Assembly: GCA_977017645.1 (NCBI GenBank)
Contig: OZ360228.1
Coordinates: forward strand, 54,436,001 to 54,500,000
DNA: 64,000 nucleotides
Source: Torpedo marmorata
Lineage: Eukaryota
Reading direction: 5' to 3'
This document shows, piece by piece, positions 45,852-46,079 of the stretch. Under the pieces are notes generated by a model that saw nothing but the letters and a program-made list of their open reading frames with translations, searched no databases and was not told the origin of the DNA. The position numbers and the translations under genes are program-made. The stretch's first letter is position 1, and every line of letters starts with the position of its first letter.

Positions 45852-46079
45852 GTTGTTTTGTTTGTATGTGTTGGTGTGTGTGTGTGTGGCTGCAGAGAAT
45901 ACGGTGAGAAGGTAATTATAGAAGATATCTGTAAGGTTCAAGAAAGGGGAGAAATGGATGAAGTGGGAGGGAGGGGAGGAGTGAGAGTCAAGGGAGGAGG
46001 GTGTGAGTGAGTGAGAGGCAAGAGGGTGGGTGGGTGAGTGAGTATGAGAGGTATGTGGCAATGCACGGGGCTCCTAGTG

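What the first reader, a model, noticed from the sequence alone, without database searches (positions are those of the whole stretch)
45954..46058. Dense YCAY cluster in NOVA1's own 5' leader: possible feedback switch
Seen: 13 YCAY tetramers in 105 nt on the sense strand (e.g. UCAUACUCACUCACCCACCCAC, UCACUCACUCAC, CCACUUCAUCCAU), 100-210 nt upstream of the AUG. About 2 are expected at uniform base composition, though the C/U skew raises that. Established: clustered YCAY is the NOVA binding code. Inference: NOVA1 may bind its own 5' UTR to control translation, export or intron 1 splicing. With the intronic hairpin and minisatellite this suggests a multi-site autoregulatory circuit beyond the known exon-level one. 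Requires the TSS to be upstream of about 46060.
Basis: partly seen in the sequence, partly recalled or inferred. Interest (0 to 1): 0.75.

Follow-up and report, generated by a model that had tools for sequence, protein, structure and literature searches.

The report
NOVA motif cluster in NOVA1's leader

Summary
Observation confirmed: 13 YCAY in 105 nt on the minus (sense) strand, 103-207 nt upstream of the AUG of a gene shown here to be NOVA1. It is the top window in 430 kb spanning the gene, above the known exon-4 autoregulatory site (10), above 73 control upstream regions (max 6) and above 31 non-satellite tracts of like composition (max 10). It fails the dinucleotide shuffle (P 0.16), but so does the exon-4 site (P 0.18), so that test refutes nothing. 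Against: the tract is an 81% C/U degenerate repeat, the non-motif YACY scores 11, only 2 sites are UCAU, the distal six sites do not align in a relative, and the paralog lacks the cluster. The transcription start was not mapped; CCAAT boxes and a contig of a probable RNA run favour a start upstream. No CLIP peak table could be read. Most likely reading (0.4): a NOVA-bound leader element that damps translation, fitting a published, unexplained ~40% rise of NOVA1 protein with unchanged mRNA in Nova2-null cortex. Main rival (0.3): a generic C/U tract. The wider 'multi-site circuit' is not supported.

The parts
45954..46058 (-). C/U-rich tract with 13 YCAY, -207 to -103 from the AUG; mostly unpaired in predicted folds
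45954..46014 (-). proximal seven YCAY, inside a block aligned in organism B (45920-46015; 3 substitutions, 5 gap letters)
46026..46058 (-). distal six YCAY, inside the segment 46016-46096 that is replaced by 68 other, unshown letters in organism B
45967..46042 (.). degenerate tandem repeat, period about 30, 2.8 copies, 75% matches
46074..46127 (-). upstream ORF of 17 codons in the main frame; stop ends 15 nt before the tract; its AUG lies in a 71-nt block with no listed substitution in organism B; its stop lies in the diverged segment
46315..46373 (.). three CCAAT boxes (46315, 46334, 46369): inferred core promoter; 46303-46340 also aligned in organism E
45890..45930 (-). two acceptor-like AG sites (45930-45929, 45891-45890), each with 16 of 20 pyrimidines before it, like the true intron-1 acceptor; use not shown
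45716..45851 (-). coding part of NOVA1 exon 1 (136 nt)
44316..44459 (-). NOVA1 exon 2 (first half of KH1)

Best explanation
A C/U-rich tract with 13 YCAY motifs lies 103-207 nt upstream of the NOVA1 start codon; it is likely part of the mRNA leader, is predicted to be largely single-stranded, and would bind NOVA KH domains, which would then likely lower initiation at the main AUG as a negative feedback. Shown: gene identity, motif density, rank against controls, partial conservation, an upstream ORF ending 15 nt before the tract. Inferred: start site upstream of 46060; NOVA occupancy; repression of translation, either by hindering 43S scanning or by favouring the upstream ORF; the same site would let NOVA2 restrain NOVA1.
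For: Top YCAY window of 430 kb on both strands, ahead of the exon-4 site, which the same scan finds with 10. 0 of 73 control upstream regions exceed 6; 0 of 31 non-satellite composition-matched tracts exceed 10. Most sites predicted unpaired. Proximal half conserved in organism B: 3 substitutions in 96 nt against 19 in 133 nt further upstream (Fisher P 0.005), and the one listed change inside the cluster keeps its site and adds one. CCAAT boxes lie 260-310 nt upstream of the tract; a 627-nt contig of run X2 (RNA only by guess) bridges the tract. In mouse Nova2-null cortex NOVA1 protein rises about 40% 'by unknown means' (PMC4930328) while Nova1 mRNA is unchanged (log2FC 0.11, FDR 0.90). 45% of NOVA1 CLIP clusters are exonic. 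Precedents: MBNL1 binds its own exon 1 (PMC5389549 abstract); the KH protein PCBP2 represses translation through a 5' UTR C/U tract (PMC6573783).
Against: Dinucleotide shuffle P 0.16; whole-leader shuffles not significant. The control tetramer YACY scores 11 in the same window and only 2 sites are UCAU, the motif most enriched in NOVA1 CLIP. Sites arise partly by local duplication, and C-rich satellites in this genome reach 13-18. Six of 13 sites lie in the segment that does not align in organism B, and conservation of the proximal block cannot be assigned to the motifs rather than to the whole block. The paralog has a pyrimidine-rich leader with at most 4 per 105 nt. Published NOVA CLIP is described as intronic, 3' UTR and coding. 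YCAY spacing alone is a weak predictor: 841,501 clusters of 3 or more in mouse genes, 12% sensitivity at 99% specificity (PMC3737533). NOVA2 binds mainly introns (77.7%), and the protein and RNA data come from different ages (P0, E18.5), so the mouse rise may run through exon 4, the 3' UTR or protein stability. No mammalian NOVA1 leader was examined here.
Confidence: 0.4

Rival explanations
1. A generic unstructured C/U leader tract, grown by slippage of short CAC-containing units; YCAY is a by-product. It is a neutral spacer or a pad for PCBP, hnRNP K or PTB, and NOVA has no special role.
For: 81% C/U, nine runs of three or more C and eight PTB-type words in the 206 nt before the AUG; YACY 11, YCCY 15, YCUY 15 in the same window; tandem-repeat structure; paralog leader also pyrimidine-rich; the eIF4G2 C/U tract binds PCBP2, hnRNP K and PTBP1.
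Against: Composition-matched tracts outside satellites have a median of 5 and a maximum of 10 YCAY; the 4 of 73 control upstream regions with a tract of 80 or more pyrimidines per 105 nt have at most 6; the top site of the whole gene falls in the leader of the gene that encodes the binder.
Confidence: 0.3
2. The tract acts as DNA (purine/pyrimidine-asymmetric promoter-proximal element), or most transcripts start within or downstream of it, so it is seldom in RNA.
For: Start site not mapped here; the region is CpG-rich; annotated conserved leaders often contain the real promoter (PMC9456764 passages); X2 is RNA only by guess and its contig also runs through the CCAAT boxes, as DNA would.
Against: CCAAT boxes and the blocks conserved in organisms B and E lie 140-310 nt upstream of the tract; a contig of run X1 ends at 46413 and extends away from the gene, as a divergent transcript from a shared promoter would (weak hint, one study); the human NOVA1 leader is about 300 nt (recalled, no call).
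Confidence: 0.12
3. The tract is the branch-point and polypyrimidine region of an acceptor at 45929 (or 45890) used by transcripts from a further upstream exon; NOVA bound there would cause skipping of the AUG exon, as MBNL does on MBNL1 exon 1.
For: 141 nt without AG before a CAG at 45929; 16 of 20 pyrimidines, equal to the true intron-1 acceptor; the paralog has an acceptor-like TTTTCAG directly before its AUG; YCAY clusters upstream of an exon promote skipping; MBNL1 precedent; Ciona Nova has two first exons.
Against: Lack of AG follows from 2 G in 105 nt; X2 contigs cross 45929 with no joint or loose end among the listed rows (61 further rows not shown); no upstream exon identified, only donor-like words at 46227, 50826 and 51643.
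Confidence: 0.1

Closest known systems
NOVA1 exon-4 autoregulation (Dredge et al. 2005; seen only through reference lists and passages of PMC3737533; the paper itself was not held)
   Same: Same gene, same protein, YCAY cluster in its own transcript; the exon-4 cluster is present in this genome with 10 YCAY per 105 nt.
   Different: That site spans an alternative exon and its downstream intron and acts on splicing; this one precedes the AUG, has no shown alternative exon, and has no binding data.
MBNL1 exon-1 autoregulation (PMC5389549; abstract and outline read)
   Same: An RNA-binding protein's motif cluster in the 5' part of its own AUG-bearing exon.
   Different: MBNL1 binding was shown by CLIP and works by skipping the exon from upstream-promoter transcripts; no upstream exon, skipping or binding is shown here.
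PCBP2 repression through the eIF4G2 5' UTR polypyrimidine tract (PMC6573783; abstract and section 7 read)
   Same: KH-domain protein, C/U tract of like length (78 nt) in mid-leader, translational repression within a feedback loop.
   Different: Loop between two genes, not self-regulation; tract 92% C/U against 81% here, with regularly placed CA; binder here unproven.
Sex-lethal control of the msl-2 upstream ORF (recalled; one search did not show the mechanism)
   Same: Upstream ORF followed closely by a single-stranded binding tract for an RNA-binding protein.
   Different: U-rich site, RRM protein, fly; not autoregulatory; use of the upstream ORF here is untested.

Membership tests
NOVA1 gene | Three NOVA-type KH domains; NOVA1 rather than NOVA2 residues | tested here: met
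   Exon 2 matches Nova-1 KH1 of 2ANN at 45 of 46; KH3 matches NOVA-1 chain 1DT4 at 70 of 72 and has its residues where NOVA-2 chains differ; a second NOVA gene lies on C74.
NOVA1 gene | Short alternative exon 4 with a YCAY cluster | tested here: met
   24-codon exon at C40:54200340 between exons 3 and 5 with 10 YCAY per 105 nt; the search words for the exon were recalled.
NOVA-bound YCAY cluster | Three or more closely spaced YCAY on the sense strand | tested here: met
   13 in 105 nt, with runs at 4-nt spacing.
NOVA-bound YCAY cluster | Motifs accessible (unpaired) | tested here: met
   Predicted only: unpaired probability 0.33-0.99 per site over three assumed 5' ends, most above 0.7; leader fold z -0.24.
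NOVA-bound YCAY cluster | Motifs conserved across species | tested here: inconclusive
   One relative only: proximal seven in an aligned block (two of its three substitutions unplaced), distal six in an unaligned segment whose letters were not shown; paralog lacks the cluster.
NOVA-bound YCAY cluster | Present in the transcript | tested here: inconclusive
   Bridged by a contig of a run that is RNA only by guess; the link to the spliced coding exons was not examined; contigs cannot show a start.
NOVA-bound YCAY cluster | CLIP tags or direct binding | not testable with these tools
   No readable peak table in the supplements listed or searched.
Autoregulatory element of an RNA-binding protein | Output changes with protein dose and depends on the motifs | not testable with these tools
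   Only indirect mouse data: protein up, mRNA unchanged in Nova2-null cortex.
MBNL1-type AUG-exon skipping | Upstream exon spliced to the AUG exon | tested here: inconclusive
   Acceptor-like sites exist; no joint seen in four runs of contigs.
Known Rfam cis-regulatory RNA | Covariance-model match | tested here: not met
   No match over the leader; one sub-threshold intronic hit at E 0.78.

The most novel reading that the evidence does not exclude
NOVA proteins sense their own level through an ancient YCAY pad in the leader of their own mRNA: bound NOVA1 or NOVA2 diverts scanning ribosomes to the upstream ORF and throttles NOVA1 translation. This would be a second, translation-level loop beside exon 4, would explain the unexplained rise of NOVA1 protein in Nova2-null brain, and may be shared with invertebrate Nova genes (an unchecked note of this scan reports a like cluster in an octopus Nova leader).
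Probability: 0.15. Interest if true: 0.8.

Novelty: new variant of a known kind. Interest (0 to 1): 0.5.

Why it matters
NOVA1 dose matters (haploinsufficiency in a patient), and PMC4930328 states that NOVA1 protein rises 'by unknown means' when Nova2 is lost, with mRNA unchanged. A leader element gives that open point a cheap, direct test with existing CLIP data and one reporter set. Nine literature searches turned up no report of NOVA binding the NOVA1 leader, but the library lacks most subscription papers and cannot search the string 5' UTR. Self-regulation of RNA-binding proteins is common, so even if true this is a new site and mode, not a new kind of system.

Tried and rejected
Dinucleotide shuffle as a decisive test: rejected, since it fixes the CA count in a pyrimidine tract (mean 11 of a maximum near 15) and the known exon-4 site fails it too. 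Sequencing runs: no RNA holder listed on record; 11 of 12 rows are RNA only by guess; 4 of the 12 were laid. X1 shows no cover over the tract, X12 only short low-complexity pieces, X8 two short promoter-proximal pieces; holes prove nothing. The lay covered 45860-46500 only, so a splice link from the tract to exon 2 is left open. Mammalian, bird and teleost NOVA1 leaders were not obtained. CLIP peak tables: PMC11836289 file 18 is vocalisation data and four of its files are too large to read; the lists for PMC10382602, PMC10927500, PMC3737533 and PMC9381448 show only PDFs or small sheets, which I did not open; PMC10359595 has figure legends only. Unseen supplements may hold a Nova1 leader peak. 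Lists of hyperconserved leaders: no Nova1 in PMC9456764 supplements (no positive control) or PMC7484617 supplements (where the control HOXA9 was also absent): uninformative. Structured RNA: fold no better than shuffles, no Rfam family. N-terminal extension from the upstream AUG: the frame is open for 74 codons after the uORF stop, but this follows from the lack of G, and the indels in organism B sum to -10, so it is not kept in frame there. BLAST hits of the tract elsewhere in the genome are low-complexity matches. Paralog exon 1 was not in the first 30 kb fetched and was found by pattern.

Full report
The gene. The window holds the 5' end of a minus-strand gene: coding exon 1 at 45851-45716 and exon 2 at 44459-44316. 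Exon 2 matches Nova-1 KH1 in the PDB at 45 of 46 residues. Fetching the neighbouring 366 kb gave exon 3, the 24-codon exon 4 and the last exon, whose KH3 matches the NOVA-1 chain at 70 of 72 and carries NOVA-1 residues where NOVA-2 chains differ. A second NOVA gene lies on contig C74. The name NOVA1 is therefore tested, not only recalled.

The observation. The sense strand of 45954-46058 has 13 YCAY, 103-207 nt before the AUG: 6 UCAC, 4 CCAC, 2 UCAU, 1 CCAU. The tract is C58 U27 A18 G2. Mononucleotide shuffles expect 6.5 (P 0.0026) and dinucleotide shuffles 11.0 (P 0.16); for the whole 208 nt before the AUG neither is significant. I ran it on a positive control, the exon-4 cluster of the same gene, whose mouse counterpart is a validated NOVA site (PMC3737533 passages): 10 YCAY, mononucleotide P 0.006, dinucleotide P 0.18. 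The test thus fails a true site and cannot decide.

Empirical controls. The leader window ranks first on both strands of 430 kb. In 40 evenly spaced 10-kb stretches, 26 windows reach 13 or more, all in two C-rich satellite loci. Among 38 other tracts picked by composition alone, 2 reach 13; among the 31 outside those two loci the maximum is 10 and the median 5. For 90 Fox, HMG-box and bHLH loci (the 30 best loci of each search) I took the 400 nt before the first in-frame AUG; 17 were dropped (12 without an upstream in-frame AUG, 5 with a stop in the match). Of the 73 kept, the best window has at most 6 YCAY on the sense strand and 7 on the antisense; 4 of 73 have a comparable pyrimidine tract, with at most 6. 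Some of these regions may be intron rather than leader, and they are not genes for RNA-binding proteins. Against specificity: 45967-46042 is a degenerate 30-nt repeat; the reversed tetramer YACY scores 11 in the same window, near its own gene-wide maximum of 12; UCAU, the motif most enriched in NOVA1 CLIP, occurs twice. The paralog's leader is pyrimidine-rich, with a (CU)n run, but has 6 YCAY in 210 nt against 15, and at most 4 per 105 nt.

Conservation. Only near relatives could be reached. A 627-nt contig of run X2 (organism B) aligns at 45920-46015 and 46097-46490; the 81 nt between are replaced by 68 letters that the tool does not show. Substitutions are 3 in 96 nt in the proximal block, 0 listed in 46097-46167, 19 in 133 at 46168-46300 and 4 in 120 over the CCAAT region. 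The seven proximal sites therefore lie in a constrained block; the listed change near 45964-45966 keeps one site and adds another, while two of the three substitutions are unplaced and could touch the sites near 46003-46014. The six distal sites lie in the least alignable segment; whether the replacing letters hold YCAY is unknown. Three substitutions cannot show that motifs rather than the block are selected.

Is it in the RNA? Not shown. No run is on record as RNA. X2 bridges the tract but also the promoter-like region, and contigs cannot show a start. Indirectly: three CCAAT boxes lie at 46315-46373, part of them also kept in organism E; an X1 contig ends at 46413 and, if colinear, reaches about 47319, 14 nt after an ATTAAA, as a divergent polyadenylated RNA from a shared promoter might (weak, one study). 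A human leader of about 300 nt is recalled, not tested. PMC9456764 (passages) warns that conserved 'leaders' often contain the promoter. I put the chance that the tract is in the main mRNA at about 0.85 (judgement).

Anatomy of the leader. The tract is largely unpaired in predicted folds, and the leader folds no better than shuffles; no Rfam family matches. An upstream ORF of 17 codons (46127-46074) ends 15 nt before the tract; its AUG lies in the block without listed substitutions. Two further upstream AUGs at 46254 and 46312 may lie at or beyond the start site. Two acceptor-like AGs follow the tract (45929, 45890), as pyrimidine-rich as the true intron-1 acceptor, and the paralog has one directly before its AUG; no joint was seen there.

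Mechanism. The reading I commit to (0.4) is NOVA binding to the leader with damped initiation at the main AUG. Shown are density, rank, position and partial conservation; predicted is accessibility; inferred are transcription, binding and repression. Support from print: in Nova2-null mouse cortex NOVA1 protein is up about 40% 'by unknown means' (PMC4930328 section 6), while the supplementary table gives Nova1 mRNA log2FC 0.11, FDR 0.90; 45% of NOVA1 clusters are exonic; PCBP2 represses translation through a 78-nt C/U leader tract (PMC6573783 abstract and section 7); MBNL1 regulates itself through its first exon (PMC5389549 abstract). Against: NOVA2 is mainly an intron binder; the passages read describe NOVA sites in introns, 3' UTRs and coding sequence (PMC10382602, PMC11836289, PMC10927500, PMC9381448); motif spacing alone predicts binding poorly; the mouse leader was not examined. 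Rivals: generic C/U tract (0.3), DNA-level element or downstream start (0.12), acceptor with NOVA-driven skipping of the AUG exon (0.1).

The wider circuit. The intron-2 minisatellite (28 nt x 29) has one YCAY per unit on the sense strand, and no intronic window in the 64 kb exceeds 8; an 81-nt inverted repeat exists at 32744-32919 but nothing ties it to NOVA.

Novelty. Nine searches showed no report of NOVA on the NOVA1 leader; passages of PMC2014790, PMC12445529 and PMC7312376 mention autoregulation only as the exon-4 reference, where the term was displayed. The original exon-4 paper was not held and CLIP peak files were not readable. An unchecked note of this scan (e1-9540993) reports a dense cluster in an octopus Nova leader; I could not test it and count it as a lead only. 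Verdict: a real and unusual cluster, a plausible new site and mode of a known kind of feedback, unproven in function. Interest 0.5.

Noticed in passing
window 46413 to about 47319: Run X1 has a 907-nt contig that ends at 46413 and extends away from NOVA1; its inferred far end lies 14 nt after an ATTAAA (47300), with two AATAAA inside. Possible divergent transcript from a shared promoter; RNA status and strand unknown.
   Followed up: partly
window 46074-46127 (-): 17-codon upstream ORF in the main frame, its AUG in a 71-nt block with no listed substitution in organism B. Mouse Nova2 has an upstream-initiated long form; here a stop intervenes.
   Followed up: partly
L018 (G000:C74, about 28691560-28691650, -): The second NOVA gene has a (CT)n run and an acceptor-like TTTTCAG directly before its AUG, so its first coding exon may be an internal exon; its intron 1 is about 77 kb against 1.26 kb in NOVA1. 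L019 on small contig C1970 is a near-identical copy, perhaps a haplotype duplicate.
   Followed up: no
G000:C40:54200236-54200340 (-): NOVA1 exon 4 and its YCAY cluster (10 per 105 nt) are present in this genome, 11 kb after exon 3, so the known splicing loop likely exists in this lineage.
   Followed up: partly
window 37570-38381: 28-nt minisatellite, 29 copies, 97% matches, in intron 2; one YCAY per unit on the sense strand.
   Followed up: partly
window 32744-32919: Inverted repeat with 81-nt arms, 90% complementary, 14-nt loop, in intron 2; could be a small mobile element; not examined.
   Followed up: no
window 49461-49601: 42-nt minisatellite in a second GC- and CpG-rich patch about 3.3 kb upstream of the gene.
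   Followed up: no
L100 (G000:C40:55879698): A forkhead gene with a 428-codon frame lies 1.4 Mb from NOVA1, as expected if it is FOXG1 (neighbourhood recalled, identity not tested).
   Followed up: no
L070, L089: Two of 40 sampled 10-kb stretches are C-rich satellites with 13-18 YCAY per 105 nt over kilobases; if intronic and on the sense strand they would be large potential NOVA sinks.
   Followed up: no
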